From assembly GCA_033723415.1 (NCBI GenBank), contig JAWVXD010000004.1:128001-192000 (forward strand): a stretch of 64,000 nt of DNA, in the 5' to 3' direction. This DNA comes from Sulfurospirillaceae bacterium (GTDB lineage: Bacteria > Campylobacterota > Campylobacteria > Campylobacterales > Sulfurospirillaceae). A program made the translations under genes and the position numbers. Under the pieces are notes generated by a model. That model had not been told where the DNA came from. It ran no database searches and saw only the letters and a program-made list of their open reading frames with translations. This document shows, in pieces, positions 17,429 to 45,019 of this stretch (position 1 is the stretch's first letter; each line of letters starts with the position of its first letter).

Positions 17429-17509
17429 TTAACTATCTCCTTTATCTTGGAACTCGTCCCAAGTTAAATTCCTCTCACTAAAGCTAACGCTTCGCGTAGA
17501 ATATTTCAT
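17429..17509 (-). repeat. Two-hairpin intergenic repeat element, copy A, with 26-aa ORF MKYSTRSVSFSERNLTWDEFQDKGDS
   Basis: Homologous to 33033-33119 and 44858-45019. Structure: ACGC-GAA-GCGT, 16-nt linker, TTAACTTGGGAC-GA-GTTCCAAGATAA, then AAAGGAGA SD. The ORF stop directly abuts the arsC ATG. Confidence 0.85.
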
Positions 17510-17521
17510 TAATTGTCTCCT

Positions 17522-18775
17522 TTAAACTAAGCTCAATAGTACGATCAGTAGCACCGGAGGTGTGACCAAAAGACCAAATTTACTATACTGCCAAAATCCT
17601 ATCTTTATCCCTTTTTTTGCCAAGACATGAAGCCAGAGCAGTGTTGCCAAAGATCCAAACGGTGTCATCTTCGGACCTAGATTGCAGCCTATGATATTAG
17701 CATAAGCAAGGGCATGATTTTGTACGTGCTGCAAAGCTATATCCATTATCATAACCGTTGGCATATTGTTCATGATGGCACTTAGAAACGCAGATATAAA
17801 GCCTGTTCCTACGATAGCTACAATGTCACCTTTTTTACTAAGTTCATGCAAAATGATTGCCAAATGATCCGTCAAACCTGCATTTTTCAAACCGTAGACT
17901 ACGATATAAAGACCTATGCTAAACCATACAACCTGCCAAGGGGCATTTTTTATAGTAAGCCATGCTTTTGCGCTTTTTGTATAACTGGCTATTGCCAGGA
18001 AGACCAAGCCGCCTCCTAGCGCAAAAAGACTGATCGGAAGATGAAAATGATCCCCTATAAAATACCCGATCAACAATAAGCTCAGGAAGAACCAGCTAAA
18101 TTTAAACAATGTTTTATTTTTTAGTACGTCATCTTCATTTTTCAACAAACTTATATCTACGCTCTTTGGTATATCTTTGCGTAAGATAATCCAAAGTACC
18201 GCAATAGAAACAATCGTGCTGATAAAATATGGGAAGATCATATGTTGTAGGTACTCTAAAAATCCTATATGAAAGTAATTTGCCGTTACGATATTTGTCA
18301 AATTTGAAAATACAAAAGGCAGGGATGCACTGTCACTTATAAATCCACCCGCCAAGATAAAAGCTAAAATCGTCTTTGCATCTAACTTGAGGATTCTCAT
18401 CTTTGCCAACAAAATAGGCGTCAAGATCAATGCCGCACCATCATTTGCAAACAAAGCAGATACAAATGAACCAAGAGCCAGAGAATAAACAAACATAAGA
18501 TGTCCGTTGCCCTTTGACAGTTTTGCCATCTTTATAGCACACCATTCAAAAAAACCTATCTCATCAAGGACCATCGACAGTATGATAATCCCGACAAAAG
18601 CCAATGTGGCATCCCAAACTATTCCTGTGACTATCGCTATATCATTAAAACTTACAACGCCCAAAACCAAAGCGACTATTGCCCCAATGATGGCAGTAGT
18701 TCCTATCTGCAAGCCACGAGGTTGCCATATCACAAAAATAAGTGTTATTAAAAACAGACTACTTGCCAGTATCAT
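17522..18775 (-). CDS. arsB: Arsenite efflux pump
   Basis: WQPRGL, ALFANDGAALILTP, SNLTNIV, MNNMPTV and LGPKMTPFGSLATLLW. Confidence 0.95.
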   Translation of the reverse strand: MILASSLFLITLIFVIWQPRGLQIGTTAIIGAIVALVLGVVSFNDIAIVTGIVWDATLAFVGIIILSMVLDEIGFFEWCAIKMAKLSKGNGHLMFVYSLALGSFVSALFANDGAALILTPILLAKMRILKLDAKTILAFILAGGFISDSASLPFVFSNLTNIVTANYFHIGFLEYLQHMIFPYFISTIVSIAVLWIILRKDIPKSVDISLLKNEDDVLKNKTLFKFSWFFLSLLLIGYFIGDHFHLPISLFALGGGLVFLAIASYTKSAKAWLTIKNAPWQVVWFSIGLYIVVYGLKNAGLTDHLAIILHELSKKGDIVAIVGTGFISAFLSAIMNNMPTVMIMDIALQHVQNHALAYANIIGCNLGPKMTPFGSLATLLWLHVLAKKGIKIGFWQYSKFGLLVTPPVLLIVLLSLV

Positions 18776-19082
18776 CTACAACACACACATTATTAAGTTT
18801 TGGAATATTTAATTCTAAGTAGCTTATCTCTTCTAAGATAGCTTGCCTAAAAGCATCTAGTGGTTTTCTTATACTGTAATACGCCCATCTCCCTCTACGT
18901 TCAACTCTCAAAAAACCTGCATCTTTTAGAATTTTCAGATGTCTGGAAATACGAGATTGGATCATATCAAAGGAACTTTCTATGTCACATACGCATACTT
19001 CACCGTAAACGTCTATAAATCTAAGAATTTGTACTCTGGTTTCGTCATTTATCGCACCGGCAGTTTTTAAAAATATATCCAT
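18759..19082 (-). CDS. arsR: ArsR/SmtB-family repressor
   Basis: EVCVCDI metal site, QSRISRHLKILK and RRGRWAYY; first gene of the ars operon. Confidence 0.92.
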   Translation of the reverse strand: MDIFLKTAGAINDETRVQILRFIDVYGEVCVCDIESSFDMIQSRISRHLKILKDAGFLRVERRGRWAYYSIRKPLDAFRQAILEEISYLELNIPKLNNVCVVDDTGK

Positions 19083-19116
19083 ATACTTGCCTTCTTTTGA
19101 AAAATTTTTAGCAGTA

Positions 19117-19172
19117 TATCATAATTATTACAACATATCAAGATATATTGATATGTTGTAATAATTATGATA
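19117..19172. promoter_or_regulatory. Perfect 25-bp inverted repeat, probable ArsR operator
   Basis: TATCATAATTATTACAACATATCAA-GATATA-TTGATATGTTGTAATAATTATGATA, about 35 bp upstream of arsR. Confidence 0.7.
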
Positions 19173-19256
19173 ATTTATTAAGTCTTTTTAAATACTAATA
19201 AAAGTATTATACGATTTAAAATTTATATTCTCTCCAGATGCTAAAAGGATAATTCT

Positions 19257-20945
19257 ATGAAATTAGCTACCAAAACGTTACTTGTTGTTTTATTATTTTT
19301 AACACTAACAGCTTCATCTATAGTCGCTATTTCTGCGTACTTCAGTTATAGAGACACAAGAACATTCAGCCATAATTTTGAAGCACAGATACATAAACAA
19401 ACGCGAGAAAAGGTTAAAACCGAGATAGATATAGCCATAAGTACAGCTCAGACTATTTATGATAAAGAAACAAAAGCCGGAGTCAAAGATGAAGAGATCA
19501 AAAAGAATATCAAAGATGCACTAAGAGGTATCACTTTTGACAACGGAGTAGGATACTTTTTTGCCTATGCGCATAACGGAGATAGAGTTTTTCACAATAA
19601 ATTACCGGCAACTGAAGGAAAAAATTATATCAACCTTGAAGATTCACATGGTACACAGATCGTTAAAGAATTAATAAAAGCTGCACAAAACGGCGGAGGA
19701 TTCGTTACATATTATTTTCCTAAAGAAAAAGGAGGAACTCCTTATCCAAAACTTAGCTATACAAAAGATTTCAAACCTTACGGCTGGGCGATCGGTACAG
19801 GAGAATACATAGATGGTATTGACGCAAAGATGAAAAAAGTTGATGCAAATGCACAAGAATCATTTTTGCATAATATGTATGTCTTCATCTCTATAATTAT
19901 TATCTGTGCAATTTTTGGATCTATCGTTATTTATTTCTTGCTAAAATTCATCCTGTCAAAACCTCTATTTGAATTAGCAGAAACCACTAAAGACTTAGCA
20001 AGCGGCGATGGAGATCTAACAAAAAAATTAAAAATCAAAGGCAATGATGAGATATCAATAGCCAGCAAAGAGATAAATAACTTTATAGAAAAAGTAAGAG
20101 TCATGACAGAAAATGCAAAATCTCTCTCAGCTGAAAATTCATCTATATCCAATGAGCTCTCAAATACATCTTTAGAAGTCGGAAAACTAGTAGAAAATTC
20201 AACAAAACTTGTAAATACCACTACTGAAAAAGCAAGCCTTATCTATAAAGATATGTCAGAAAGTATAGAAGAAGCGAAAGTAGCAAAAGAAGATTTGGAA
20301 AATGCCAATACTTCTCTAGGCGGTGCAAGCGAAGCCATCTTGAAACTCACTAAAGACATCCAAGACAGTGCTGCACTAGAGATAGAAATGGCAGAGAAAA
20401 TTCAACAATTAAGCACTGATGCAGAACAGGTAAAACAAGTTTTAAGCGTGATTAGCGATATAGCCGAGCAAACAAATCTTCTAGCGCTAAATGCAGCCAT
20501 TGAAGCAGCTCGTGCAGGTGAACACGGTAGAGGCTTTGCCGTAGTTGCCGATGAAGTAAGAAAACTGGCAGAGAGAACACAAAAATCATTATCAGAAATA
20601 AATGCTACCATCAATGTCATAGTTCAGGCTATAACAGAATCTAGTCACCAGATGACACTAAATTCAAAAAATGTAGAAGAGCTTAGTCAGACTGCTTTTG
20701 GTGTAGAAAAGAAGATCAATGACCTGTCTGATGTTATGGTAAAAGCAAATAACATGGCTGAAAACAGTGTCGATAAATATATTCAAAGCGGCAACAGCAT
20801 CAAAGAGATCATAGGAAATATAGAAGAAGTAAATAAGATCTCAACGAAAAATACAAGAAGCATAGAAGAGATAGCGAGTGCAGCAGAACATATGAATGAT
20901 ATGACAGAAACACTCAAGAACAAATTATCAGAATTTAGAACTTGA
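19257..20945 (+). CDS. Methyl-accepting chemotaxis protein with Cache sensor domain
   Basis: GYFFAY...[21 protein letters not shown]ache domain; [42 protein letters not shown]. Confidence 0.95.
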
Positions 20946-20953
20946 TAAGAGTT

Positions 20954-21376
20954 TTATAGATTAGTTAAATTTTTAAATATTATCTTGAGAGCTTTTATAT
21001 TAGCTCTCAACATATCATCACTTACTCCTGATAATATCTCTTTTCGTAAATTATTTAAAACGATTTTTGAATCTTCAAATTTTTCCTGCCCGTTTTTTGT
21101 AAAATGCACTATTTTTGCCCTTTTGTCGGTAGGATGCTCCATTCTCTCGATCCATCCGTCTTCTTCTAAAGTATTTAACAATCTTGCAAGTGTAGAATTT
21201 TCTATTGAGAGAAATTTAGCTAATTCATTTTGAACAATTCCGTCTTTATGGCGACTAAGTAACAACATAGCTGACCATTTTGCATAACTCAACCCTAAAG
21301 GCTTCAGTCTTTCACTTAAAGACATCTTCCATAATCTAGCAGTATCGCCCATCAATTGACCAAATTCTTCTTTCAT
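20954..21376 (-). CDS. MarR/SlyA-family transcriptional regulator
   Basis: QNELAKFLSIENSTLARLLNTLEEDGWIER...DKRAK. Start trimmed to ATG 21376 after a GGAG SD; divergent from emrAB. Confidence 0.9.
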   Translation of the reverse strand: MKEEFGQLMGDTARLWKMSLSERLKPLGLSYAKWSAMLLLSRHKDGIVQNELAKFLSIENSTLARLLNTLEEDGWIERMEHPTDKRAKIVHFTKNGQEKFEDSKIVLNNLRKEILSGVSDDMLRANIKALKIIFKNLTNL

Positions 21377-21443
21377 TTTGCATTCTCCAATTTTTCTTAA
21401 ACAATATTTTACATAAATAATGCTAAAATCCAGTTTTAATTTA

Positions 21444-21458
21444 GTTAGCAATGCTAAC
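21444..21458. promoter_or_regulatory. MarR/SlyA-type operator palindrome
   Basis: GTTAGCA-A-TGCTAAC between the divergent marR and emrA starts; resembles the SlyA box TTAGCAAGCTAA. Confidence 0.6.
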
Positions 21459-21476
21459 AATATACAAGGATTTAAA

Positions 21477-22622
21477 TTGTCTGAAAAAGAAATCAAAAAC
21501 AACAAAAAAAGAAATAATATCTTAATATTCTTAGCTTTATTTTTTATCTCAGCAGGTATAGGATATAGCATATATTACTATCTATACGCACAATTTTATG
21601 AATCGACCGACAATGCTTATGCCAAACAAAACATAGTATATGTAACACCTCAGATCAGCGGTATTGTGGACAAAGTATACGTAAATGAAACTCAATATGT
21701 CAAACGAGGACAATTGCTGGCAAGGCTTGACGATAGAGATCTAAACTTGACATTTGAACAGGCAAAGACAAATCTTGCAAATACGGTAAGAGATATCAGT
21801 AAACTTTATAAACAAAAAGAATCGGCTCTCTCTTCGTTAAAGCTGGCAAAGATCAATTTGCAAAAAGCAACCGATGATTTGAGAAGGAAAGAATATCTCA
21901 AAAAATCTCATGCGATTTCCGATGAAATGTATCAAGATTTCAAATATGCTTATGACAAAGCTTCGCAAAATCTGGATATTGCACAAAAACAAGTTGCAGA
22001 GTTAAACTCTATTTTGAAAAATGACAATATATATGATGATCCACAAATCAAAAAAGCAGCTGTTGAAGTCGAGCGAAGTTATTTAAATCTTAAAAGAAGT
22101 AATATAATGGCCCCAACTAGTGGGATCATAGCTCAAAAAAGACTGAGTGATGGAGAGTATGTCGGCGTATCATCAACACTGTTTGCAATAGTTCCCACAA
22201 ATGGATTTTGGGTAGATGCTAACTTTAAAGAAACTCAATTGAACCATATAAGGATAGGTCAAAGTGTCAAACTATACTCCGATCTATACGGTGAGAAAGT
22301 GGAATATCATGGCAAGGTCGAGGGTATAAATCCAGGTACAGGAGCAGTCTTTTCACTTATTCCTGCACAAAATGCTACCGGCAATTGGATCAAGATCGTA
22401 CAGAGGATTCCGGTTCGTATAAAACTAGATCCGAAAGAGTTGGCAAAACATCCTCTTCATGTAGGAAATTCAATGCAGGTTACAGTTGATGTTCACAATC
22501 AAAAAGGTGCAATTTATAGTACGACATCAAGTAACTCACATAATTCTTCATCGAGACTTTATCAAGATTCTATAAAAGAATCCAATGTGATAGTAAATAA
22601 AATTATTAAGCAAAATTTGTGA
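21477..22622 (+). CDS. emrA: EmrA-like multidrug efflux membrane fusion protein
   Basis: ESTDNAY, WVDANFKETQL and FSLIPAQNATGNWIKIVQRIPVRI. TTG start at 21477 follows AAGGA. Confidence 0.9.
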   Translation: MSEKEIKNNKKRNNILIFLALFFISAGIGYSIYYYLYAQFYESTDNAYAKQNIVYVTPQISGIVDKVYVNETQYVKRGQLLARLDDRDLNLTFEQAKTNLANTVRDISKLYKQKESALSSLKLAKINLQKATDDLRRKEYLKKSHAISDEMYQDFKYAYDKASQNLDIAQKQVAELNSILKNDNIYDDPQIKKAAVEVERSYLNLKRSNIMAPTSGIIAQKRLSDGEYVGVSSTLFAIVPTNGFWVDANFKETQLNHIRIGQSVKLYSDLYGEKVEYHGKVEGINPGTGAVFSLIPAQNATGNWIKIVQRIPVRIKLDPKELAKHPLHVGNSMQVTVDVHNQKGAIYSTTSSNSHNSSSRLYQDSIKESNVIVNKIIKQNL

Positions 22623-24136
22623 ATAAATACGAACAGTTCCCGATACCGCTTCTTGCAGTCTTAACACTATTTTTAGCACTTGCTACATTTATGCAGGTGC
22701 TTGATACGACTATTGCAAATGTCTCGATACCAACGATAGCAGGAGATCTAGGAGTTACTCCTACCAAGGGTACTTGGGTTATCACAGCCTTTGCGGTATC
22801 AAATGCAATAGCCATGCCCCTTACCGGTTGGTTGGCAAAACGTTTTGGAGAAGTGAGACTTTTTGTATTTTCAACAGGACTGTTCTCCCTCACCTCTATG
22901 TTATGCGGAATGGCTCCAAATTATCAGCTGCTCATATTCGGAAGAGTTCTTCAAGGTGCAGTCGCAGCTCCTATGATGCCTCTGTCTCAAAGTTTATTGT
23001 TGTCAAATTACCCTGCACATAAAAAAGGTTTGGCTCTTGCTTTTTGGTCTATGACGGCAACTTTAGGACCGATCGCAGGTCCGCTTTTGGGTGGATATAT
23101 AACCGACAATTTTACCTGGCCTTGGATTTTTTATATCAATGTACCTATAGGGTTGCTAAGTGCATTTATAGTCTGGCAGATGCTAAAAGACAGAGAAACA
23201 AAAATAGCTAAATTCCCTATAGATTATATTGGGCTAGGACTTCTTATAGTAGGTGTAGGCTGTCTGCAGATCATGCTCGATAAAGGCAATGAGCTTGACT
23301 GGTTCTCATCTCCGACAATCATAATACTTTGCGTCATAACCGTCATTTCCATATCCTTTTTTATCGTTTGGGAACTTTTTGACAAACATCCTGTCATAGA
23401 TCTTATGTTATTCAAAAGCAGAAACTTTACAATAGGCGCCATATCTCTAAGTCTGGGATACACTATCTTTTTGGGAGGAGGAGTAGTTTTTCCGTTGTGG
23501 CTTCAAACACAGCTTGGGTACACTGCTTTCTGGGCAGGTTTTGCCTCAGCAACAGTCGGAATTTTTGCTTTTTTATTTTCTCCTATAGTCGGAAGCAATA
23601 TGCATCGCCTTAACTTGAGGGTGCTTGTGACTATCAGCTTTATACTTTTTGGGATAAGTTATTATTGGATGTCAAACTTTACGACAGAGATAGATCTTTT
23701 CCATGCATCGGTACCTAGACTTCTTATGGGAGCGGCTATGAGTATGTATTTTGTACCTTTGACCGCTATCATATTGTCAGAACTTGATCAAGCACACACC
23801 GCATCTGCCATGGGACTCGTAAATTTCTTGAGAATTTTAGGTGGTGGTCTTGGAACTTCCATAGCCGTTACGTTTTGGGAGAGATGGGGCAAATATCACC
23901 ATGCTATCCTTTCAGAACAGATAAATATGTTCTCACATACTACACAGACTGCACTCACTGCTATAAAACATGCTTCTGTCCCGGCATTGCCGATCATAGA
24001 TCATCTTATAACGCAGCAAGCAATGACTAGGTCAAATGATGATATTTTATTACTCTCAAGCTATGCATTTGGCGGACTTATTTTATTGATATGGTTTGCT
24101 AAACCGCCGTTTATGCCTTCACATCCTAAGCGCTAA
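22619..24136 (+). CDS. emrB: EmrB-like DHA2 MFS efflux permease
   Basis: ATFMQVLDTTIANVSIP, WPWIFYINVPIG and LQIMLDKGNELDWF. Confidence 0.92.
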   Translation: MNKYEQFPIPLLAVLTLFLALATFMQVLDTTIANVSIPTIAGDLGVTPTKGTWVITAFAVSNAIAMPLTGWLAKRFGEVRLFVFSTGLFSLTSMLCGMAPNYQLLIFGRVLQGAVAAPMMPLSQSLLLSNYPAHKKGLALAFWSMTATLGPIAGPLLGGYITDNFTWPWIFYINVPIGLLSAFIVWQMLKDRETKIAKFPIDYIGLGLLIVGVGCLQIMLDKGNELDWFSSPTIIILCVITVISISFFIVWELFDKHPVIDLMLFKSRNFTIGAISLSLGYTIFLGGGVVFPLWLQTQLGYTAFWAGFASATVGIFAFLFSPIVGSNMHRLNLRVLVTISFILFGISYYWMSNFTTEIDLFHASVPRLLMGAAMSMYFVPLTAIILSELDQAHTASAMGLVNFLRILGGGLGTSIAVTFWERWGKYHHAILSEQINMFSHTTQTALTAIKHASVPALPIIDHLITQQAMTRSNDDILLLSSYAFGGLILLIWFAKPPFMPSHPKR

Positions 24137-24144
24137 GAGTAAAA

Positions 24145-25287
24145 ATGAAAAAGAGAGAATTGGCAATTTTAGTTTATATTATAACTATCTCTCTTTCCGT
24201 CATGTACGCAACACAGCCTCTTCAGCCTCTTCTTGCAAAAGTATTTAAAGTTGATGTCGTAAAAGCATCCGCATTTACAGCCGTCATGCTCTTTTCATTG
24301 GCGATTGCTCCTATCATATATGGATATATTTTAGAGAGTTTTTCGGCAAAAAAGATGCTCCAACTTGCTACTACTATACTTTTTGTCACAAACATATTTC
24401 TAGGGTTAAGCAATAATTATGAAACATTTCTGGCTATAAGAATAATCGAGGGTTTAGTAATACCTGCTATTCTGACTTCTGTCATGAGCATCTTGGCAAA
24501 CTTAGATAAAGAAAATGTAAAATTTAATATGTCAGTTTATGTCGCTTCGACTGTTTTTGGAGGTATCATAGGAAGAGTAGCATCAGGTTTCATAGCAACA
24601 AATTTTGGATGGAGAATCGTTTTTATATCACTCTCCGTGGAGCTGTTATTTGCGCTTTATTTTGTGCATAAGATCAGCTATAGCGGTGAAGCTAAACTTG
24701 TTAGAGCCAACATATCAGATGTCATCTCAATCCTGAAAGACCGAAGATTTACAACCGTTTATCTGTTGATGTTTACTATATTTTTTGTATTTGGAGGTCT
24801 TTTAAATATTTTACCTTTTAGGATTAAAGAGATAAATCCAAACAGCACAGAAGCTCAAATAGGTCTAATGTACCTTGGATATAGTACAGGTATAGTAGTC
24901 TCTTTGTTTTCTCATAAAATCGTAAAGTTTTTTAAAACAGAAATAAGAACTATTATCGCGGCTACTTTATTTTTTAATGTTATCGTTATATTTTTTGCTA
25001 CTAGAAACACTACTGTTATATTTTTACTCTTATTTATATTTTGTGTGGGAATGTTTACTATACACTCTATCTCTTCAGGTTTGGCAAACTCCATACGTGC
25101 AGACAAAAGATCTATCACTTCCGGCATGTATTTGACCTTTTATTATATAGGTGGTTCTCTTGGCTCAATAGTACCTGCTATGATCTATCAAAATCTGGGA
25201 TGGAATACTACGATATTTATATTTGCCGCTATTTTATTTTTTATTTTCATGTTTGTTGTCTATAGCAGAAAATATTTCAGACAGTAA
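24145..25287 (+). CDS. MFS transporter (YnfM-like)
   Basis: MYATQPLQP, GGIIGR and GMYLTFYYIGGSLG; about 12 TMs. Confidence 0.82.
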   Translation: MKKRELAILVYIITISLSVMYATQPLQPLLAKVFKVDVVKASAFTAVMLFSLAIAPIIYGYILESFSAKKMLQLATTILFVTNIFLGLSNNYETFLAIRIIEGLVIPAILTSVMSILANLDKENVKFNMSVYVASTVFGGIIGRVASGFIATNFGWRIVFISLSVELLFALYFVHKISYSGEAKLVRANISDVISILKDRRFTTVYLLMFTIFFVFGGLLNILPFRIKEINPNSTEAQIGLMYLGYSTGIVVSLFSHKIVKFFKTEIRTIIAATLFFNVIVIFFATRNTTVIFLLLFIFCVGMFTIHSISSGLANSIRADKRSITSGMYLTFYYIGGSLGSIVPAMIYQNLGWNTTIFIFAAILFFIFMFVVYSRKYFRQ

Positions 25288-25565
25288 AAATACTATATTC
25301 TCCTTCTACAGCTCCTTTTAAGTAAAAATTAAGTAAAATGCTTGCCAATTCAGAACTTCTTATGGAACTTCTTCAAAACCTGCCGAGATTTGGTTAATAC
25401 CGAGCGAGTATGTAGGTTTTTGCATACTAGTTTACCGGGTTAACAAAACACAAAATAACTCAAAATTTTTATGTAGTAAAGTATTGCTTTACAAATATAT
25501 TCTTTAATATAGTTTTGAAAAATAAAACACATGAAAAAATAAGATTTTTTCAAATAGGAAACAAA

Positions 25566-27035: not shown

Positions 27036-27138
27036 ATCATAAATATTATATAGCCGGCAAGGTGACGAAATTGACGAAAAAAATACTTGAAATATTTTTA
27101 TAAAATTGTATAATAAATAAATTTTATAAGGAGCAATA

Positions 27139-28296: not shown

Positions 28297-28306
28297 TCTT
28301 TCTTTA

Positions 28307-32007: not shown

Positions 32008-32018
32008 TATAAAAATCT

Positions 32019-32697: not shown

Positions 32698-33036
32698 TTA
32701 AAATGTCAAGATCGGCTTACCTGATTTTAGCCAATCACTTAACAGCACACCGGTATAAAAAACCTCTACTCCGCAACTTTGCAGAGCATCTTTGATCTCC
32801 AGATTTTCACTGCATTTTTGACAGGCTTGCACTTTGACTCCTACGTCACTCATCTCTTTTATTTTTGCTTGAATCTCTTTATCTTCACTTAAAATTTTTT
32901 GCGATGCACCCCAAATGAGGAGCGTGACCTCATCAAACCAACCTTTTAGTTTTGCATTTAGAGTGTAGAGAAAAACCATATTGTGTATCGTTTCTTTGTT
33001 GTCAGTCGTCCAAACTACCATCAGTTCATTTTTCAT
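32698..33036 (-). CDS. DsrE-family protein
   Basis: GWFDEVTLLIWGAS and GVKVQACQKCS. Confidence 0.8.
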   Translation of the reverse strand: MKNELMVVWTTDNKETIHNMVFLYTLNAKLKGWFDEVTLLIWGASQKILSEDKEIQAKIKEMSDVGVKVQACQKCSENLEIKDALQSCGVEVFYTGVLLSDWLKSGKPILTF

Positions 33037-33119
33037 TTTATTTCTCCTTTAATTTGAGACAAGTCCCAAATTAAATTCCTCTCACTAAAGCTTTCGCTTT
33101 GCGAAGAAATTTTGTGTCT
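33033..33119 (-). repeat. Two-hairpin intergenic repeat element, copy B
   Basis: TTCGC-AAA-GCGAA, linker, TTAATTTGGGAC-TT-GTCTCAAATTAA, then AAAGGAGA. The frame RHKISSQSESFSERNLIWDLSQIKGEIK follows the upstream stop in frame and ends in an ATGA overlap with the dsrE start. Confidence 0.85.
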
Positions 33120-34337: not shown

Positions 34338-34340
34338 TTT

Positions 34341-34934
34341 TTACCTTTTTAAAATTTTTAATATAATCTTCGCCAGCTCCAAAGCTTTCGAGCGATGCGA
34401 AATATCCTCTTTTATACCATCATCCAATTCACCCAAAGTCTTATCATAGCCAAGCGGTATAAATATCGGGTCATACCCAAAGCCGTTTTCACCTTTTTTT
34501 TCATCTATCACATTACCATGCATCCACCCATGGACACAAAATTCATTGCCTTTATACACTAAAGCGATCGCTGCTGTATAAAATGCTGGTGTACTCTTGA
34601 GATTATTTTGTTTCAGTACCGATATAAGCTTGTCTAGATTTTGTAGAGAGGTAGCACCTTCTCCTGCATATCTTGCACTGTAAATCCCGGGTTCGCCACC
34701 CAGTGCATCGACACTGATACCGCTGTCATCTGATAAAACGATCGCGTCTTTGTCATCTAATCTTTCATAAACGGATCTTGCTTTGATCAATGCATTCTCT
34801 TTGAAACTAGATCCGTCTTCTATGATCTCAAACGGCTCCATCACTTCTTCAAAGGAAAAAACATCAAAATCTTTCATATATGACTTAAATTCTTTTATCT
34901 TGCCTTTATTTGCAGTTGCCAAAATTATCTTCAA
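34341..34934 (-). CDS. rdgB: Non-canonical purine NTP pyrophosphatase
   Basis: [31 protein letters not shown] and SHR. Confidence 0.95.
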
Positions 34935-35031
34935 TATAATCCTTTGTACATTTAAAGAAAAATTTTACCTATTTTTTGTTTAAAATCTATATATACGAAT
35001 TTAAAATTCTCGTCCAAAGTAGATAAAATAG

Positions 35032-36114: not shown

Positions 36115-36205
36115 TCTTTAACCTTTTAATTTAAAATCCGTTTTTATTAACACAGTATAATCTATTTATAATAATATTAATATTAATTATCAATAAGGTT
36201 TAGAT

Positions 36206-37762: not shown

Positions 37763-37769
37763 AAATAGC

Positions 37770-37806
37770 TACAACAATATGATTACTTTTTAATCATATT
37801 GTTGTA
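37770..37806. promoter_or_regulatory. Perfect 16-bp inverted repeat upstream of urtA (operator or terminator)
   Basis: TACAACAATATGATTA-CTTTT-TAATCATATTGTTGTA, immediately followed by TATAAT. Confidence 0.55.
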
Positions 37807-37877
37807 TTATAATAATAGTTTATATTGTATACTCCTAATTAGAAATTCGTTTTCTAAAAAAATATTAGGAGAAAAAC

Positions 37878-39161
37878 ATGGTAAAGATGCTTTCAAAATG
37901 CTTATCTATACTTGCTATAGTAGGCATGAGTATGACTATGCAAGCTGCAGGTACGATCAAGATCGGAGTATTGCACTCTCTATCCGGTACAATGGCGATT
38001 TCAGAGACTGCATTAAAAGATACAGTTCTTATGTTGATTGCTGAGCAGAACAAAAAAGGCGGCGTATTGGGCAAGAAATTGGTACCAGTAGTAGTTGACC
38101 CTGCATCTAATTGGCCATTATTTGCTGAAAAGATGAGAGGGCTTTTAACCAAAGACAAAGTTGCCGTGACATTTGGTTGTTGGACATCAGTTTCAAGAAA
38201 ATCTGTTCTTCCTGTAGTTCAAGAATTAGACGGCATTTTATTTTATCCTGTACAATATGAAGGCGAAGAATCTTCTAGAAATGTATTTTATACGGGAGCT
38301 GCACCAAATCAACAAGCGATCCCTGCCGTTGATTATCTTATGAACGAAGTGGGCGTTAAAAGATGGGTACTAGCCGGAACAGACTATGTTTATCCAAGAA
38401 CTACAAACAAAATCTTAAAAGCATATTTGAAATCAAAAGGCGTAAAAGATAGTGACATTATGGTGAACTATACGCCATTTGGGTATTCAGATTGGCAAAG
38501 TATTGTCTCAAAAATCAAAAAATTCGGAAGTGCCGGTAAAAAAACAGCGGTTGTTTCTACTATAAACGGAGATGCAAACGTTCCTTTTTACAAAGAACTT
38601 GCAAACCAAGGCATCAGTGCAGAGAACATCCCTGTAGTCGCATTTTCAGTTGGAGAGCAAGAGCTTTCAGGACTTGATGCAAAACCTCTTGTAGGTCACC
38701 TTGCAGCTTGGAATTACTTTGAAAGCGTTGAAAGCCCGGCAAATAGTAAATTTATCGCAGAGTGGAAAAAATTTACTAAAAATCCAAAAGCTGTGACAAA
38801 TGATCCTATGGAAGCGACATATATCGGTTTTCATATGTGGGTAAAAGCAGTTGAAAAAGCGGGAACTACAAAACCAGATGCTGTCATAGACGCTATGGTA
38901 GGTATTTCTGTACCAAACTTAACAGGTGGAATTGCTACTATGATGCCAAATCACCACTTGACAAAACCTGTATTTATCGGTGAGATACAAGCAAACGGTC
39001 AGTTTGAAACAGTATGGAGGACACCGGGTGAAGTTGTCGGAGATGCTTGGAGTGACTTTTTACCGGGAAGTAAAGACTTGATCTCTGATTGGAGAAAACC
39101 TTTAAGTTGCGGAAATTACAACGTAAAAACAGGAAAGTGCTCAGGACAAAACTTTAAATAA
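37878..39161 (+). CDS. urtA: Urea ABC transporter substrate-binding protein
   Basis: LHSLSGTMAISE, DPASNWPLFAEK, FGCWTSVSRK and FYPVQYEGEE. Confidence 0.95.
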   Translation: MVKMLSKCLSILAIVGMSMTMQAAGTIKIGVLHSLSGTMAISETALKDTVLMLIAEQNKKGGVLGKKLVPVVVDPASNWPLFAEKMRGLLTKDKVAVTFGCWTSVSRKSVLPVVQELDGILFYPVQYEGEESSRNVFYTGAAPNQQAIPAVDYLMNEVGVKRWVLAGTDYVYPRTTNKILKAYLKSKGVKDSDIMVNYTPFGYSDWQSIVSKIKKFGSAGKKTAVVSTINGDANVPFYKELANQGISAENIPVVAFSVGEQELSGLDAKPLVGHLAAWNYFESVESPANSKFIAEWKKFTKNPKAVTNDPMEATYIGFHMWVKAVEKAGTTKPDAVIDAMVGISVPNLTGGIATMMPNHHLTKPVFIGEIQANGQFETVWRTPGEVVGDAWSDFLPGSKDLISDWRKPLSCGNYNVKTGKCSGQNFK

Positions 39162-39166
39162 CATAC

Positions 39167-39187
39167 AGACCGGGAGTCTCCCGGTCT
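39167..39187 (+). other. Intercistronic GC-rich stem-loop after urtA (partial terminator or mRNA stabiliser)
   Basis: AGACCGGGAG-T-CTCCCGGTCT. Confidence 0.6.
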
Positions 39188-39203
39188 TCAATATTGGATT
39201 AAC

Positions 39204-40808
39204 ATGGCAAAACTACTTTTAAAGATATTACTTTTTAATTTATTATTATTTTCTTCGCTTTACTCAAGCGATTTTGAGAGTGAACTAGGTCCGCTCACAA
39301 AAAGCTACGGCTTTAGGCAAAAAGAACAGACGATAGAGAAGATTTCACAACAATACGCAAACAATGAAGCACTACGTACTTTGTTAAACGCTCTACTCAA
39401 TGAAAATCTTTTTTTCGTTAAAGATAGCAAAAAATTTGTGGTAACGATCAAAAAAGATGGCGAAACTTATGAGGTTATAGATCTTATGACAAAAGAAAAG
39501 CTAAAACCTGTAAGCAAGTATCTACTGGAGAGAGTCAAAACAAATAATAAATTAAGAAGTATTGCAAGAGGTCGACTTGCAGATTTAAATCTTTTTTCCA
39601 AAGATCAAGAGATCCGACTAAGATCTGCAAAAAATATCTTAAAAAACTTAAATAAAAACTCGATTGTTCTAATCAATAAAGCATTAAAAAATGAAAAAGA
39701 TGCTGCAGTTATAAGAGTTTTGGGTGAAGCCAGAAGTATTTTAGAAGTGGATTACGGTACAAAAGCCGAGCGATTGATCGCTGTAGAAAAATTAGGTAAT
39801 TTTCTCTCACCTCAAGCTTTACAAGCTTTACAAAAGACTTATAATACAAGCACGGATCAGGATATTAAAAAATCTGCAGCTACCTCCATCGCTGCGATAA
39901 AATCTAAAAAATCTATCTATGCATTTATCGAAAAGGCCTTTTTTGGCTTGAGTTTGGGATCTATTTTGCTTCTTGCCGCGATCGGTCTGGCCATCACATT
40001 TGGAGTCATGAAGGTTATAAATATGGCCCATGGCGAGATGATGATGATAGGAGCTTATACTACGTATACTTTACAACAACTTTTACCGAACATGACTGAG
40101 TATTCTGTCATCTTGGCGATACCCTTAGCATTTATCGTAAGCGGACTTGTCGGTATCATACTAGAGCGCCTTGTAATAAGACATCTCTATGGAAGACCGC
40201 TTGAGACGCTTTTGGCAACTTTTGGGATAAGTTTGATATTGCAGCAACTTGTCAGGAGTATCTACTCTCCTCTAAACCAAGAAGTAAAAACACCACAATG
40301 GATGAGTGGAGCTTTGGAGATAAACGGCGCGCTGTCTTTAACATACAACAGACTCTATATCATCATTTTTGCCCTGCTTGTATTTGCGGGAATATTACTG
40401 CTTTTGAACAAAACGTCTCTTGGGTTAAAAGTACGTGCCGTCACACAAAACCGTGAAATGGCACAAGCCATGGGCATTCGAACCGGACTCATCGATGCAC
40501 TCACTTTTGGACTAGGTTCAGGAATAGCCGGAATTGCAGGAGTCGCTCTAAGCCAACTGACCAATGTCGGGCCGAATCTTGGACAATCCTATATAGTAGA
40601 TTCGTTTATGGTCGTGGTTTTTGGAGGAGTCGGCAATCTTTGGGGAACGCTTATCAGTGCCTTGACACTTGGAGAGATCAACAAATTCATCGAGCCAGTT
40701 GCCGGTGCTGTCTTGGCAAAGGTCATCATCCTCGTCTTTATCATTTTATTTATACAAAAACGACCTCGCGGACTATTTCCGCAAAAGGGTCGGGATGCAC
40801 AGGATTAA
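39204..40808 (+). CDS. urtB: Urea ABC transporter permease with long periplasmic N-terminus
   Basis: GLAITFGVMKVINMAHGE, LYGRPLETLLATFG and FIQKRPRGLF. Confidence 0.94.
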   Translation: MAKLLLKILLFNLLLFSSLYSSDFESELGPLTKSYGFRQKEQTIEKISQQYANNEALRTLLNALLNENLFFVKDSKKFVVTIKKDGETYEVIDLMTKEKLKPVSKYLLERVKTNNKLRSIARGRLADLNLFSKDQEIRLRSAKNILKNLNKNSIVLINKALKNEKDAAVIRVLGEARSILEVDYGTKAERLIAVEKLGNFLSPQALQALQKTYNTSTDQDIKKSAATSIAAIKSKKSIYAFIEKAFFGLSLGSILLLAAIGLAITFGVMKVINMAHGEMMMIGAYTTYTLQQLLPNMTEYSVILAIPLAFIVSGLVGIILERLVIRHLYGRPLETLLATFGISLILQQLVRSIYSPLNQEVKTPQWMSGALEINGALSLTYNRLYIIIFALLVFAGILLLLNKTSLGLKVRAVTQNREMAQAMGIRTGLIDALTFGLGSGIAGIAGVALSQLTNVGPNLGQSYIVDSFMVVVFGGVGNLWGTLISALTLGEINKFIEPVAGAVLAKVIILVFIILFIQKRPRGLFPQKGRDAQD

Positions 40809-40811
40809 AAA

Positions 40812-41945
40812 ATGAAAACAAGAAAACCTATATTATTACAAATATTTGATGGTGACAAGGGTGGGAAGATCGTGCTTTCTTTGCTGTTCTTCATCGTTGC
40901 CTATGTTTGTGTTACTAATCTATTTTTTTCTCATGATTCAATATTTTATTCATCTACATATTTAGTCACTTTGCTTGGGAAATACGTTGCTTTTGCACTT
41001 TTAGCACTTGCTTTGGACTTGGTATGGGGATATATCGGGATTTTGAGTCTCGGACACGGTGCATTTTTTGCTCTTGGGGGATATGGCATGGGAATGTATC
41101 TCATGCGACAGATCGGAGATCGTGGCGTTTATGGAAATCCTCTACTACCGGATTTCATGGTATTTATGAATTTAAAAGCTCTGCCTTGGTTCTGGCATGG
41201 ATTTGATAATTTCTTTTTTAGTATGTTTATGGTCGCCTTCATCCCGGGACTTTTGGCTTTCGTGTTTGGGTGGCTTGCTTTTAGATCACGAGTCACGGGA
41301 GTTTATCTCTCTATCATCACACAAGCCCTCACGTATGCTCTAATGCTGGCTTTTTTCAGAAATGATATGGGCTTTGGCGGCAATAACGGTTTGACGGATT
41401 TTAAAGATATCTTAGGGTTTAACCTAGATAATGATCATACAAGAGTTTCTTTGCTTATACTATCTTTTATAGCTCTTTTGGCAGGTTACATGATCAGCCG
41501 ATTTATTATCAATTCAAGGCTGGGTCGTGTTTGTATCGCAATTCGTGATTCTGAAAGCCGTGTTCGGTTCTTGGGTTACAAAGTACAGCAATACAAACTT
41601 TTTATATTTGTAGTCTCGGCTGTCCTAGCAGGCATCGCAGGAGCCCTTTATGTTCCGCAAGTCGGCATCATCAATCCAAGTCTCTTCTCCCCTCTATTTT
41701 CTATAGAGGTCGTGATTTGGGTTGCAGTTGGAGGAAGAGGAACACTATATGGTGCTATCATCGGTGCTTTTATAGTAAATTATGCAAGTACTTATTTTAC
41801 CTCTGCATTGCCTGAGATTTGGCTTTATGCTCTTGGCGGATTATTTGTGATCTCCACTCTTTTTTTACCAAAAGGTATCGTCGGATTTATGTCAAAATTA
41901 AATTTACGCAGAAGCAAAAAAAAGGTTTCCAATGTTCTTTCTTAA
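40812..41945 (+). CDS. urtC: Urea ABC transporter permease
   Basis: LDLVWGYIGILSLGHG, GVYLSIITQA, GGNNGLTDFK and VAVGGRGTL. Confidence 0.94.
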   Translation: MKTRKPILLQIFDGDKGGKIVLSLLFFIVAYVCVTNLFFSHDSIFYSSTYLVTLLGKYVAFALLALALDLVWGYIGILSLGHGAFFALGGYGMGMYLMRQIGDRGVYGNPLLPDFMVFMNLKALPWFWHGFDNFFFSMFMVAFIPGLLAFVFGWLAFRSRVTGVYLSIITQALTYALMLAFFRNDMGFGGNNGLTDFKDILGFNLDNDHTRVSLLILSFIALLAGYMISRFIINSRLGRVCIAIRDSESRVRFLGYKVQQYKLFIFVVSAVLAGIAGALYVPQVGIINPSLFSPLFSIEVVIWVAVGGRGTLYGAIIGAFIVNYASTYFTSALPEIWLYALGGLFVISTLFLPKGIVGFMSKLNLRRSKKKVSNVLS

Positions 41946-42720
41946 ACACAATAATGCCGACAATGTCGGTAAACTAGAAGGCGGAGAGAGGATCTTATAT
42001 TTAGACAATGTCACGGTGAGTTTTGATGGATTTAAAGCACTAAATGCACTGAGTTTAACTGTAGCTTATCGAGAACTTAGATGTATTATCGGAGCTAATG
42101 GAGCCGGAAAATCCACGATGATGGATGTGATTACAGGCAAAACAAAACCACAAAGCGGGGATGTCATCTTTGGGCGAGCCGTTAATCTGTTGGATATGGA
42201 TGAACCCTCTATAGCAGAAATAGGTATCGGCAGGAAATTTCAAAAACCGACTGTTTTTGGCGGACACAGTATTACAGAAAACCTAGAACTTGCGATGAAA
42301 GGGGACAAAAGATTTTTTAAAACCTTATTTGCCAAGATGAGTGGAGAAGAAAAAGAGAGAATAGAAAGAGTCATGGAGTTAATAGGACTTCAAGATTTTT
42401 ACAACAAGCAAGCCAGTATACTATCACATGGTCAAAAGCAATGGCTAGAGATCGGGATGCTGGTCATTCAAGAACCCAAACTTCTCCTTGTCGATGAACC
42501 GGTCGCCGGAATGACACCCGGGGAAGTTGAAAAAACAGGCGAAATCTTAACAAATCTTGCCAAAACAAACAGTGTCGTAGTAGTCGAACATGACATGGAA
42601 TTCATCCGAAGCATCGCAAAAAAAGTAACCGTTTTACATGAAGGCTCTGTTTTGGCTGAGGGTAGTATGGCGAGCATCCAAGAGAACGAAAAAGTCAGAA
42701 AAGTATATTTAGGTGAGTGA
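41932..42720 (+). CDS. urtD: Urea ABC transporter ATP-binding protein
   Basis: GANGAGKST, GRKFQKP, LSHGQKQWLEIGM and DEPVAGM. Confidence 0.94.
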   Translation: MFFLKHNNADNVGKLEGGERILYLDNVTVSFDGFKALNALSLTVAYRELRCIIGANGAGKSTMMDVITGKTKPQSGDVIFGRAVNLLDMDEPSIAEIGIGRKFQKPTVFGGHSITENLELAMKGDKRFFKTLFAKMSGEEKERIERVMELIGLQDFYNKQASILSHGQKQWLEIGMLVIQEPKLLLVDEPVAGMTPGEVEKTGEILTNLAKTNSVVVVEHDMEFIRSIAKKVTVLHEGSVLAEGSMASIQENEKVRKVYLGE

Positions 42721-43417
42721 TATGTTAAAAATAAACAAAGCCAATCAATTTTACGGTGAAAGTCATACTTTATGGGATTTAAGCTTAGAGATAGAGCCTG
42801 CTAAATGTACTTGTATCATGGGCAGAAACGGTGTAGGAAAGACTACTCTTACTAAAGTCATCATGGGATTATTACCCATCAAAAGCGGCGAAATTTTATA
42901 TGAAGGGCAAGACATATCAAAACTTAGCTCCGATAAAAGAGCCGGTTTAGGTATCGGTTATGTTCCTCAAGGACGCGAGATATTTTCCAATCTTTCAGTA
43001 AAAGAAAATCTTGAGATCGGGCTGCTTGGCAATCGCAACAATTTAAAAAAAGTTCCCTCAAAGATCTATGAACTATTTCCCGTTTTAAAAGAGATGTTGA
43101 AGCGAAAAGGCGGCGATCTTAGCGGCGGGCAGCAACAGCAACTTGCAATCGCAAGAGCTTTGTGTATCGAACCGAAGCTGTTGATACTAGATGAGCCATC
43201 TGAGGGAATCCAGCCAAATATCGTCCAACAAATCGGAGGCGTAATCGACTATCTTACAAAAGAAGAGAAACTCACCGTTGTGTTGGTAGAGCAAAAATTG
43301 CCCTTTGCCAGAAAACACGGAGATAGCTTTTATATCATAGAACGCGGGAGAAAAGTCGCAAACGGAGATATATCAGAGCTAAGTGATGAATTGATCAAGC
43401 AATTTTTGTCGGTATAA
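42713..43417 (+). CDS. urtE: Urea ABC transporter ATP-binding protein
   Basis: GRNGVGKTT, YVPQGREIF, LSGGQQQQLAIARAL and DEPSEGIQP. Confidence 0.94.
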   Translation: MSDMLKINKANQFYGESHTLWDLSLEIEPAKCTCIMGRNGVGKTTLTKVIMGLLPIKSGEILYEGQDISKLSSDKRAGLGIGYVPQGREIFSNLSVKENLEIGLLGNRNNLKKVPSKIYELFPVLKEMLKRKGGDLSGGQQQQLAIARALCIEPKLLILDEPSEGIQPNIVQQIGGVIDYLTKEEKLTVVLVEQKLPFARKHGDSFYIIERGRKVANGDISELSDELIKQFLSV

Positions 43418-43418
43418 G

Positions 43419-44168
43419 ATGAGTATTGCTCTAGCATTTAAAAACGATAGATTTAAGCTAAAGAAGCTAAAACTTCCTGCTAGATATTATCATTTTAATG
43501 CTAGTGAAAATTACATCAAACTACTCTGTATCGGAGAGGGAATCTTCCCAAAAGATAAGATTACCGTCCAGATAGATTTAGAGCATTCAAGCTCTATTTT
43601 TTCAACTGAATCTGCAACAAAAGTCTATCCGTCTACAAAAGAGTATAGCATCAATGCCATCACTATATCCCTAAAAAATTCAAATTGTGAATTTCTCAAT
43701 GATGAATTGATCCTTTATAAAAACTCAAAATTGATCCAGTTTTTGAAGATCAGATCAGACAGCAACTCAACGTTTTTCTACTCTGATATTTTGAGTTCCG
43801 GCAGAAGTTTTGAAAATTTTGATTTTACGTCGATGAGAATCAGGAACAGATTTTTTATAGATGGAAAATTAGAATATTATGAAAATTTTGACATAAGCGG
43901 AGATGGGATCAAAGAGTATCTGCAAAGAAACCATGCCAAAAAGTTGATCTTTGCAAAAATCTATATGAAAACAGGCGATAATGGTGATTTTTTAGATACT
44001 TTATCAGCACAAGGCCTTCGATCTTTTAGCTATACTAGAAACAAACAAATGATCATAGGCGTACTCAGCGCAGAGAATATGTATGTCATAAAAAATAAGA
44101 TAAATAGAATTTGGCATCTATACAGAAATAAACTCGATAAGAAACCGTTCAATCTGGGCAAACAATAG
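43419..44168 (+). CDS. ureD: Urease accessory protein UreD/UreH
   Basis: GEGIFPKD, TESATKVY and GR motif; position in the urease operon. Confidence 0.82.
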   Translation: MSIALAFKNDRFKLKKLKLPARYYHFNASENYIKLLCIGEGIFPKDKITVQIDLEHSSSIFSTESATKVYPSTKEYSINAITISLKNSNCEFLNDELILYKNSKLIQFLKIRSDSNSTFFYSDILSSGRSFENFDFTSMRIRNRFFIDGKLEYYENFDISGDGIKEYLQRNHAKKLIFAKIYMKTGDNGDFLDTLSAQGLRSFSYTRNKQMIIGVLSAENMYVIKNKINRIWHLYRNKLDKKPFNLGKQ

Positions 44169-44177
44169 GAGGATAAA

Positions 44178-44861
44178 ATGTTTTTGACAAACAGAGAACA
44201 AGAAAAATTGATGATCTATACGGCATCAAAGCTGGCATTTGAGCGCAAAAACAGAGGCTTGAAACTCAACTATCCAGAAGCCGTAGCCATCATAAGCTCT
44301 TTCATACTTGAGGGTGCACGCGATGGCAAAAGTGTGAGTGAGCTCATGGTAAGTGCCACACAAGTTTTAAGTGAAGATGATGTACTAGACGGGATTGCTT
44401 CTATGATGGAAACCGTGCAAACCGAAGCGACTTTTGATGACGGTACAAAACTTGTAACGGTTCACAACCCAATTCCTACAAAAAAATCAGAGACAACTCC
44501 CGGCGAATACTTCATAGATGAGGGAGAGATAGAGCTGAATGTAGGAAATGAAATCATCAGTATCGAAGTAGAAAACAAAGGTGACAGACCGATTCAAATC
44601 GGTTCGCATTACCATTTTTTCGAGGTCAATGCTTTTTTATCTTTTGATAGAGAAAAAGCCTATGGCAGAAGACTCGCTATCGCTTCCGGTACTTCTGTGA
44701 GATTTGAACCGGGCTCGGTTAAAAAGATAGAACTGGTCAATTTCAAAGGAAAACGATATATCAGTGGATTTAATGCTTTAGTCGAAGGGTACTTGGATGA
44801 TGAGAGCACAAAAGAAACCGCAATGAAGCGATTAGAAATCTTTTTGGGAGAAGTGCAATGA
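44178..44861 (+). CDS. ureAB: Urease gamma/beta fusion subunit
   Basis: [15 protein letters not shown] and [17 protein letters not shown], then [16 protein letters not shown] and GTSVRFEPG. Confidence 0.95.
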
Positions 44862-45019
44862 TAACTTTTTTGCAAAGCATTACAATAAGTCCGCGGAATT
44901 TATCTTGGGACTTGTTCCAAGTTAAAGAAGTCAGACTAAATTATTCTTGCCAAAGGCAAAGCTTTAGTGATAGGAATTTATCTTGGGACTTGTTCCAAGT
45001 TAAAGGAGACAGACAATGA
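44858..45019 (+). repeat. Tandem pair of two-hairpin repeat units forming a 53-aa ORF between ureAB and ureC
   Basis: Identical 33-mer GGAATTTATCTTGGGACTTGTTCCAAGTTAAAG at 44895-44927 and 44973-45005. [56 protein letters not shown] has ATGA overlaps at both ends. Confidence 0.88.

What the first reader, a model, noticed from the sequence alone, without database searches (positions are those of the whole stretch)
17429..45019. Dispersed two-hairpin element at operon junctions that carries its own SD and a conserved mini reading frame (4 units, 3 loci)
Seen directly: units lie at arsB|arsC (17429-17509, minus), CANSDH|dsrE (33033-33119, minus) and, as a tandem pair, at ureAB|ureC (44858-45019, plus). 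All are oriented with the host operon and share one geometry. Hairpin 1 has a 3-nt loop whose stem changes sequence but keeps pairing (ACGC-GAA-GCGT, TCGC-AAA-GCGA, TGCC-AAA-GGCA, TGC-AAA-GCA). A linker of exactly 16 nt (mostly xAGCTTTAGTGAxAGG) follows, then hairpin 2 with compensatory and G-U-preserving changes (TTAACTTGGGAC-GA-GTTCCAAGATAA, TTAATTTGGGAC-TT-GTCTCAAATTAA, TTATCTTGGGAC-TT-GTTCCAAGTTAA). At each locus the last unit ends in AAAGGAGA, which is the SD of the next gene. The same frame stays open in every unit (SFSxRNLxWDxxQxKG in three, [11 protein letters not shown] in the fourth) and stops at or overlapping the downstream ATG. A second SD-like sequence (AAAGGAGA, GGGAGA, AAGGAA) precedes each element. 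Inference: a small non-autonomous mobile element (REP/MITE-like) or cis-regulatory RNA that inserts just after a ribosome-binding site and avoids polarity by supplying a new SD and a translatable bridge. I do not recognise it as a named family.
Basis: partly seen in the sequence, partly recalled or inferred. Interest (0 to 1): 0.88.

Follow-up and report, generated by a model that had tools for sequence, protein, structure and literature searches.

The report
Mobile hairpin repeat at start codons
A small two-hairpin DNA repeat has spread to about 35-40 gene junctions in this bacterium by landing on ATG sequences and bringing its own ribosome-binding site and start codon, much as mycobacterial MIRU repeats do; in relatives it also sits in ribosomal-RNA leaders and inside RNase P RNA.

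Summary
The four units are real. They belong to a ~72-nt repeat with 34 copies at E<1e-3 in this genome (none in the reversed genome) and matches in 44 of 141 genomes of the order. Both hairpins covary; no Rfam family matches.

It is mobile: ureAB|ureC, arsB|arsC, parA|parB and hemB|argF are empty in relatives. At ureC and arsC the upstream 'second SD' and ATG are the host's original start; the repeat adds a new SD and RTG behind them. Where the old ATG is in frame the bridge stays open (32 of 33) and stops beside the new start (28 of 31), but the peptide is not conserved.

The target is an RTG(A) sequence, not a working start codon: copies end at ATG/GTG in 16S leaders, the rRNA spacer, RNase P RNA (10 of 30 family genomes, plus a separate insertion elsewhere) and once antisense between tRNAs. 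Seven of 216 copies carry 12-61-nt host duplications, fixed at the 3' junction. No mobilising enzyme was found; expression is untested. It works like MIRU: a new variant, not found in print.

The parts
17507..17523 (-). Host's original arsC SD, spacer and ATG, left upstream of unit 1; this ATG now opens a 26-codon bridge
   Evidence: The empty junction in G013 has the same SD-spacer-ATG directly before arsC; coordinates; translation
17484..17499 (-). Unit 1 hairpin 1 (4 bp + 3-nt loop, one bulged base, 2 further bp)
17469..17483 (-). Unit 1 sequence-conserved linker
17441..17468 (-). Unit 1 hairpin 2 (sequence-variable, pairing conserved)
17426..17443 (-). Unit 1 new SD (17436-17443), spacer, bridge stop TAA (17429-17431) and arsC ATG (17426-17428)
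33091..33106 (-). Unit 2 hairpin 1, 13 nt behind the CANSDH stop
33048..33075 (-). Unit 2 hairpin 2
33033..33050 (-). Unit 2 SD (33043-33050), spacer and ATGA (dsrE start overlapping the frame's TGA); no upstream in-frame ATG
   Evidence: the orthologous junction in G013 carries a diverged unit; no empty site found
44846..44861 (+). Host's original ureC SD (44846-44851) and ATGA (44858-44861); TGA is the ureAB stop, ATG now opens the 53-codon bridge
   Evidence: The empty junction in G013 has the same SD and a single ATGA overlap
44862..44935 (+). Unit 3 (inner tandem unit): diverged hairpin 1 and linker, hairpin 2 at 44899-44926, decayed SD
44936..45019 (+). Unit 4: hairpin 1 44946-44961, hairpin 2 44977-45004, SD 45002-45009, ATGA 45016-45019 (bridge stop overlapping the ureC start by 4 nt)

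Best explanation
A non-autonomous mobile repeat of free-living Campylobacterales that works like a MIRU. SHOWN: it is present or absent at orthologous junctions; its 3' end is SD + 4-9-nt spacer + RTG, mostly RTGA; the host's old SD and ATG often remain on its 5' side; it also ends at ATG/GTG in non-coding RNA genes. INFERRED: a copy is joined to a target RTG(A) by micro-homology at its own 3' end, and the 5' junction forms less precisely (from 1-2 nt lost to about 60 nt duplicated). Insertions inside genes or in reverse are mostly purged. Those at start codons survive because the new SD and start drive the downstream gene, and ribosomes starting at the old ATG read the open frame and stop beside the new start (translational coupling). 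In rRNA leaders and the variable helix of RNase P RNA it survives as a self-contained fold, and the SD decays. Mobilising route, NOT shown; my odds: single-stranded DNA copy-in using a HUH/Y1-type nuclease in trans with host repair 0.35; host template switching plus spread of filled alleles by recombination 0.30; RNA-templated target-primed insertion 0.20; IS110 or tyrosine recombinase 0.15.
For: Empty sites: ureAB|ureC in all 18 other ureC-bearing genomes of 201 searched (model scan of 14 of them negative); arsB|arsC 5 empty, 2 filled among the 7 of 30 loci with a direct junction; parA|parB 4 filled, 5 empty, 2 other inserts of 11; hemB|argF 14 filled, 29 empty, 3 other, 1 set aside of 47, interleaved on a gene tree; G045 filled and G046 empty with identical 66 and 75 nt flanks. 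Young subfamilies with uniform ends in G140 and G077. ATGA in 78 of 87 downstream ATG starts against 508 of 924 in the genome; 54 of 74 in metagenome contigs. Downstream gene co-oriented 40 of 41. SD intact in 121 of 121 units with a gene directly behind, 37 of 61 otherwise. Bridge open 26 of 27 against 64 of 124 without an in-frame ATG; replicate 17 of 19 against 51 of 97. Non-coding sites. Long duplications 7 of 216 against 0-1 in 30 permutations.
Against: No mobilising gene lies beside any copy: no significant model hit in 21 Y1 loci; 23 Y1/IS110/RT proteins hit none of 281 element-bearing loci (controls rang). Y1 genes occur in low-copy genomes too (4 of 5). Orthologous argF copies are 91-98% identical where four-fold sites are 39-53% identical, more than an idle passenger should keep; selection or allele exchange is needed. 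Only 33 of 182 copies keep an in-frame ATG. Youth could explain both a kept ATG and an open frame; stop avoidance in hairpin 2 was seen in frame 0 but also in frame 2. Copies and genomes are related, so the p-values overstate. The G045/G046 and G015/G330 pairs are replacements of 1-2 nt, not clean insertions. No expression data.
Confidence: 0.8

Rival explanations
1. A cis-acting RNA element kept for function: hairpins with a conserved linker mark a processing or protein-binding site that sets the stability or translation of the downstream cistron, and spreading is secondary.
For: Hairpin 2 has 177 G-U against 19 A-C oppositions on the sense strand; strong covariation; 91-98% identity of orthologous copies against 39-53% at four-fold sites; many sites lie in translation, ATP synthase and rRNA operons; in RNase P RNA the flanks pair to close a three-way junction.
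Against: Neighbouring genes share no pathway; essential operons are empty in most relatives; copy number runs from 0 to at least 35 among related genomes; one copy is antisense in a tRNA cluster; G-T is also the tolerated mismatch in single-stranded DNA (own knowledge).
Confidence: 0.12
2. A REP/REPIN or IS200/IS605-end derivative moved by a Y1 (RAYT) transposase with precise, duplication-free junctions.
For: All six high-copy genomes tested hold Y1 genes (the own one scores as REP-associated, below cut-off); the CTTYAG motif of the linker also forms hairpin loops next to Y1 genes; a 23-nt mini-insert occurs both in this element and in REP-like palindromes; in G140 the right-hand start is often GTG while the left is ATG, so it comes with the element.
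Against: No copy flanks any of 21 Y1 loci; those genes have other flanking palindromes; Y1 genes are in 4 of 5 low-copy genomes; copies are single or direct tandem, not inverted doublets; duplications of 12-61 nt do not fit precise Y1 junctions.
Confidence: 0.05
3. A family of genes for a conserved ~26-residue peptide.
For: Frame open in 29 of 34 own copies against 8 and 3 for the other frames; 118 of 182 overall.
Against: 34 synonymous against 172 non-synonymous linker changes; hairpin 2 length varies in all three phases (102:52:28); 129 of 182 have no ATG in the expected window; copies sit in non-coding RNAs.
Confidence: 0.03

Closest known systems
MIRU, mycobacterial interspersed repetitive units (Supply et al. 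1997; read only as summarised in PMC3184786 section 9 and one passage of PMC12548453)
   Same: 40-100 bp, some 40-50 copies, intergenic in operons, empty and filled sites with a tetranucleotide repeat, insertion at start codons, internal ORF coupled to the target gene with -4 spacing. All seen here.
   Different: Different phylum; two covarying hairpins and a conserved linker; own SD; no terminal inverted repeats seen; insertions in rRNA leaders, RNase P RNA and a tRNA spacer; variable 12-61-nt duplications. These were not in the passages I read. Sequence homology to MIRU was not tested.
Neisseria REP2 and Borrelia IR-A repeats (passages of PMC3184786)
   Same: Repeat directly upstream of genes, two internal stem-loops, ribosome-binding site and ATG.
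   Different: REP2 carries a promoter and marks co-regulated genes; here 37 of 41 copies lie between co-oriented genes, and a scan of the ure junction found promoter-like sites at chance level.
REP/REPIN with RAYT (abstract of PMC3116915)
   Same: Small, extragenic, hairpin-forming, non-autonomous; a CTTYAG motif shared with hairpins beside local Y1 genes; used as a landing site by an IS110 element.
   Different: Not inverted doublets, not randomly placed in extragenic space, not next to a RAYT, hairpin sequence highly variable.
Multi-copy candidate RNA motifs MAEB, TD-1, mini-ykkC (passages of PMC1950547)
   Same: Many copies per genome, covarying hairpins, 5' of diverse genes, tandem runs.
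   Different: No Rfam match; here empty sites and junction duplications show mobility.

Membership tests
MIRU | 40-100 bp repeat, tens of copies, intergenic within operons | tested here: met
   ~72 nt, 34 copies at E<1e-3, none of 41 hits wholly inside a called ORF, 37 of 41 between co-oriented genes; longer 110-140-nt subfamilies exist
MIRU | Empty and filled sites with a tetranucleotide direct repeat at a start codon | tested here: met
   ATGA on both sides at ureC and arsC with single-ATGA empty sites; ATGA/ATGA in 25 of 31 bridged copies; exceptions with lost or longer repeats
MIRU | Internal ORF coupled to the target gene with -4 spacing | tested here: met
   -4 overlap in 17 of 31, stop within -1 to +4 in 28 of 31, but only 33 of 182 copies keep an in-frame ATG; translation itself untested
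MIRU | Imperfect terminal inverted repeats | tested here: not met
   The ends of the young G140 and G077 subfamilies are not complementary (by eye); end pairing appears only in the RNase P copies
MIRU | Sequence homology to mycobacterial MIRUs | not tested
   No MIRU sequence was fetched; named records with the motif are all Campylobacterota
REP/REPIN | Inverted doublets spread at random in extragenic space | tested here: not met
   Single or direct tandem copies, 40 of 41 co-oriented with the next gene
REP/REPIN | Copies flanking a RAYT gene | tested here: not met
   No significant hit in 21 Y1 loci from six genomes, best E 0.019
MITE (DDE-mobilised) | Terminal inverted repeats and a fixed-length target duplication | tested here: not met
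   No TIR; junctions range from 1-2 nt lost to 61 nt duplicated
Neisseria REP2-like | Ribosome-binding site and start codon at the 3' end, two stem-loops | tested here: met
Neisseria REP2-like | Internal promoter | tested here: inconclusive
   2 promoter-like sites against 1.4 expected at the ure junction, the only junction scanned
Described Rfam cis-regulatory RNA | Match to a covariance model | tested here: not met
   No match over the units at gathering score or at E<=10 in 8 loci
Small-protein gene family | Synonymous bias and frame-preserving length changes | tested here: not met
Retroelement (target-primed) | A cognate reverse transcriptase and an RNA intermediate | tested here: inconclusive
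   RT domain in 2 of 5 high-copy genomes; the own one is retron-like; junction geometry fits; RNA intermediate not testable here

The most novel reading that the evidence does not exclude
A SINE-like element of bacteria: a processed transcript, or other single-stranded copy, whose 3' end is SD-spacer-RTGA primes its own insertion at genomic RTGA sites. That would give the fixed 3' junction, the variable duplications, the excess of 5'-truncated copies (8 against 2 of 40) and the sense bias even in rRNA operons. It has also been taken up more than once as a structural subdomain of RNase P RNA. The family, with datable filled/empty pairs, would then be a handle on how MIRU-type repeats move, which the two reviews I read leave without an enzyme.
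Probability: 0.2. Interest if true: 0.9.

Novelty: new variant of a known kind. Interest (0 to 1): 0.6.

Why it matters
Repeats that insert at start codons are described from mycobacteria, and the passages I read give no mobilising enzyme. This family gives the same behaviour in another phylum with material MIRUs were not reported to offer in those passages: insertions in non-coding RNAs that separate sequence targeting from selection for translation, hot spots hit repeatedly, young subfamilies with defined ends, and long junction duplications that constrain the mechanism. It rewires ribosome-binding sites of core genes (infB-rbfA, rplO-secY, atpH-atpA, nuoB-nuoC) and enlarges an essential ribozyme in a third of the family genomes examined. 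Practically, it lengthens RNase P RNA, creates spurious small ORFs and false N-termini, and breaks assemblies.

Tried and rejected
Mobilising enzyme: Y1, RT, IS110, all without a link; Y2/IS91 gave 0 of 5 but its control was silent, so it shows nothing. No autonomous version turned up among partial G140 copies. The IS110 found in G140 splits the element's SD and has different ends, so it uses the element as a target. Sequencing runs: no RNA holder listed, which is no evidence either way. Plasmids: no match. Viral contigs: one exact linker match without the hairpins, taken as chance. Lateral transfer of the filled argF allele: flank identity among filled genomes was not clearly above filled-versus-empty next to the junction (0.907 against 0.891 in the first 30 nt; 0.82 against 0.74 in one more distant window), so inconclusive. 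An intrinsic terminator was not found over the ure units. My first idea that the argF copy is ancestral family-wide fell with 29 empty sites. Alignment A2 had wrong coordinates and was not used. Literature: nine searches listed no description of this family; listings only, except the passages cited. The supplement of PMC5737381 could not be read, and Supply 1997 and ISfinder were not available; a prior description there cannot be excluded.
Full report
OBSERVATION. An iterated profile finds 47 hits at E<=5 in the 2.43-Mb genome, 34 at E<1e-3, and none in the reversed genome. Of 41 hits at E<=0.7, none lies wholly inside a called ORF, 40 point the same way as the next gene, 37 follow a co-oriented gene (background 411 of 662 intergenic regions), and 22 have an ATG 6-8 nt after the SD (my own simple ORF caller). 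Neighbours are unrelated, mostly core genes.

STRUCTURE. On 54 aligned copies the two hairpins have 88% of cells paired and 195 cells changed on both sides against 82 in shuffles; 0 of 500 shuffles reach this and slid controls fall far below (RNAalifold agrees). Hairpin 1 extends past a one-base bulge into the linker. A second subtype keeps that bulged shape with other bases. Hairpin 2 varies almost freely in sequence; G-U outnumbers A-C 177 to 19 on the sense strand. Rfam has no match over the units.

RANGE. blastn finds it in 22 of 24 genomes of the own family and 0 of 16 of other families. The covariance model finds it in 44 of 141 genomes and 11 of 24 families of the order, from 1 to at least 35 copies, some singletons weak; two large families gave 0 of 52 and 0 of 56. 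Named records with the motif include Sulfurimonas, Sulfurospirillum, Sulfurovum and Nitratifractor, so I place the host in Campylobacterales by inference.

MOBILITY. ureAB|ureC is empty in all 18 other ureC-bearing genomes; in G013 it is the same SD followed by one ATGA overlap. Here that SD and ATGA remain on the left and a second ATGA follows unit 4. arsB|arsC is empty in 5 and filled in 2 of the 7 loci (of 30) with a direct junction. For CANSDH|dsrE only one of five relatives keeps the junction, and it is filled. parA|parB is 4 filled, 5 empty, 2 other of 11. hemB|argF is 14 filled, 29 empty, 3 other inserts and 1 set aside of 47, interleaved on the tree; I corrected two script labels by eye. 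All 14 filled alleles start ATGA against 12 of 29 empty. G140 and G077 hold longer, near-identical subfamilies; in G140 the left end follows ATG and the right end is often GTG, so the new start comes with the element.

THE BRIDGE. At ureC the old ATG overlaps the ureAB stop, reads 53 codons through both units and stops overlapping the new start; at arsC it reads 26 codons and stops just before it; unit 2 has no ATG. Over 182 distinct copies, 33 keep an in-frame ATG and 32 of these are open; 28 of 31 with a located start stop within -1 to +4 nt of it. Outside the two young subfamilies the contrast is 26 of 27 against 64 of 124; metagenome contigs repeat it at 17 of 19 against 51 of 97. The SD is intact in 121 of 121 units with a gene directly behind and 37 of 61 others. 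The peptide is not conserved: 34 synonymous against 172 non-synonymous linker changes. Youth of a copy could produce part of this pattern, and stop avoidance was not specific to this frame.

NON-CODING SITES. In G017 full copies sit a few bases before both the 16S and the 23S genes, each followed by ATG. Among 15 genomes with 16S loci, 4 leaders carry a clear copy, 2 a degenerate one, 7 are empty, 1 is ambiguous and 1 too short; G046 has one filled and one empty operon, with differing leaders, which suggests allele exchange. Degenerate copies also end at ATG in the rRNA spacer. Ten of 30 family genomes carry the element within RNase P RNA, in the helix I identify from memory as P12, with decayed SD and paired flanks (one locus did not parse). 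One of five genomes from other families has it there too, ending at a GTGA in another register. In G065 a copy lies antisense between two tRNA genes and ends at an ATG that overlaps the complement of a CCA end. The target is therefore a sequence, and start codons are where insertions best survive (inference).

JUNCTIONS. Seven of 216 non-tandem copies have 12-61 nt of host sequence repeated on both sides, against 0-1 in 30 permutations; one of the seven may be a tandem remnant. In the longest cases the right copy begins at or near an in-frame ATG or GTG inside the upstream gene's tail, and the intact tail stands on the left. Other junctions lose 1-2 nt. In the own genome 8 of 40 hits lack the 5' part and 2 the 3' part, which selection for the SD could also explain. 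From general knowledge, this fits neither the fixed duplication of DDE transposases nor the precise junctions of Y1 enzymes, and resembles primed copy-in.

ENZYME. None found. Y1 genes are in six high-copy genomes but also 4 of 5 low-copy ones, and no copy flanks them. RT and IS110 are each in 2 of 5. Twenty-three such proteins hit none of 281 element-bearing loci.

AGAINST A PURE PASSENGER. Four orthologous argF copies are 91-98% identical while four-fold sites of the flanking genes are 39-53% identical (six pairs). Selection on the RNA or exchange of filled alleles could each do this; one search did not decide.

COMPARISON. It works like MIRU as described in PMC3184786 (section 9 read) and PMC12548453 (one passage); the original paper was not seen. 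It is not shown to be a MIRU homologue and fails REP/REPIN (abstract of PMC3116915) and MITE tests. REP2 (passages) and MAEB/TD-1 (passages) share anatomy only. Passages of 10.64898/2026.09.15.751765 had nothing relevant. Nine searches listed no description of this family; one supplement that might bear on it was unreadable. Earlier scan notes describe similar start-codon repeats in other phyla; I had reached the MIRU comparison before reading them and did not check them.

VERDICT. Real, mobile and apparently undescribed; a new variant of the MIRU kind. The class is known and seems common, which caps the score; the RNase P and rRNA insertions and the junction geometry raise it. Interest 0.6.

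Noticed in passing
L364:1620-1650 and L277 end (G140:C100); L348 (G140:C3): An IS110-family element has inserted in reverse into the SD of the repeat, at two loci of G140; a related IS110 in G077 has a similar end next to an SD-like site. Possibly an IS110 group that targets ribosome-binding sites.
   Followed up: partly
L015:2574-2681, L049, L088-L113: A ~23-nt two-hairpin mini-insert sits at the same CTTT junction inside this repeat and inside unrelated REP-like palindromes; its core is in 9 of 301 genomes. A second, smaller mobile unit.
   Followed up: partly
L483:1990-2060 (minus): The repeat is fused in frame to a pilin-like gene and appears to supply its N-terminal leader; two other copies also read in frame into the next gene.
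   Followed up: no
window 45161-45445 (minus): Rfam 5_ureB_sRNA match antisense to the 5' part of ureC, 84.8 bits; may only reflect coding-sequence conservation.
   Followed up: no
L414, L419, L427, L439, L433 (RNase P loci): Three genomes have 42-46-nt forms of the same RNase P helix that look like internal deletions of the repeat; G017 has a diverged 108-nt insert; G012 and G058 carry a different long palindrome family in this RNA.
   Followed up: partly
L065, L079 (G059 16S leader): The first ten bases of 16S are duplicated upstream around a single hairpin and an SD-like tract; possibly a remnant or relative of the repeat.
   Followed up: no
L247, L248 (hemB|argF), L222 (parA|parB): Other palindromic repeats, one resembling the flanks of a local RAYT gene, occupy the same junctions in some genomes, so these junctions are general hot spots.
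   Followed up: no
L060:1385-1670, L028, L119, L336: Tandem runs of the 5' half alone (46-57-nt period) or of whole units (74-79 nt) form VNTR-like arrays and coincide with assembly gaps and contig ends.
   Followed up: partly
L274 (G000:C1:79314-82874): The genome's only RT found is a 579-aa retron-like protein beside what looks like a small toxin-antitoxin pair.
   Followed up: no
window 19097-19192: A 48-bp-arm imperfect inverted repeat upstream of the arsR-arsB-arsC operon, probably the ArsR operator and promoter region.
   Followed up: no
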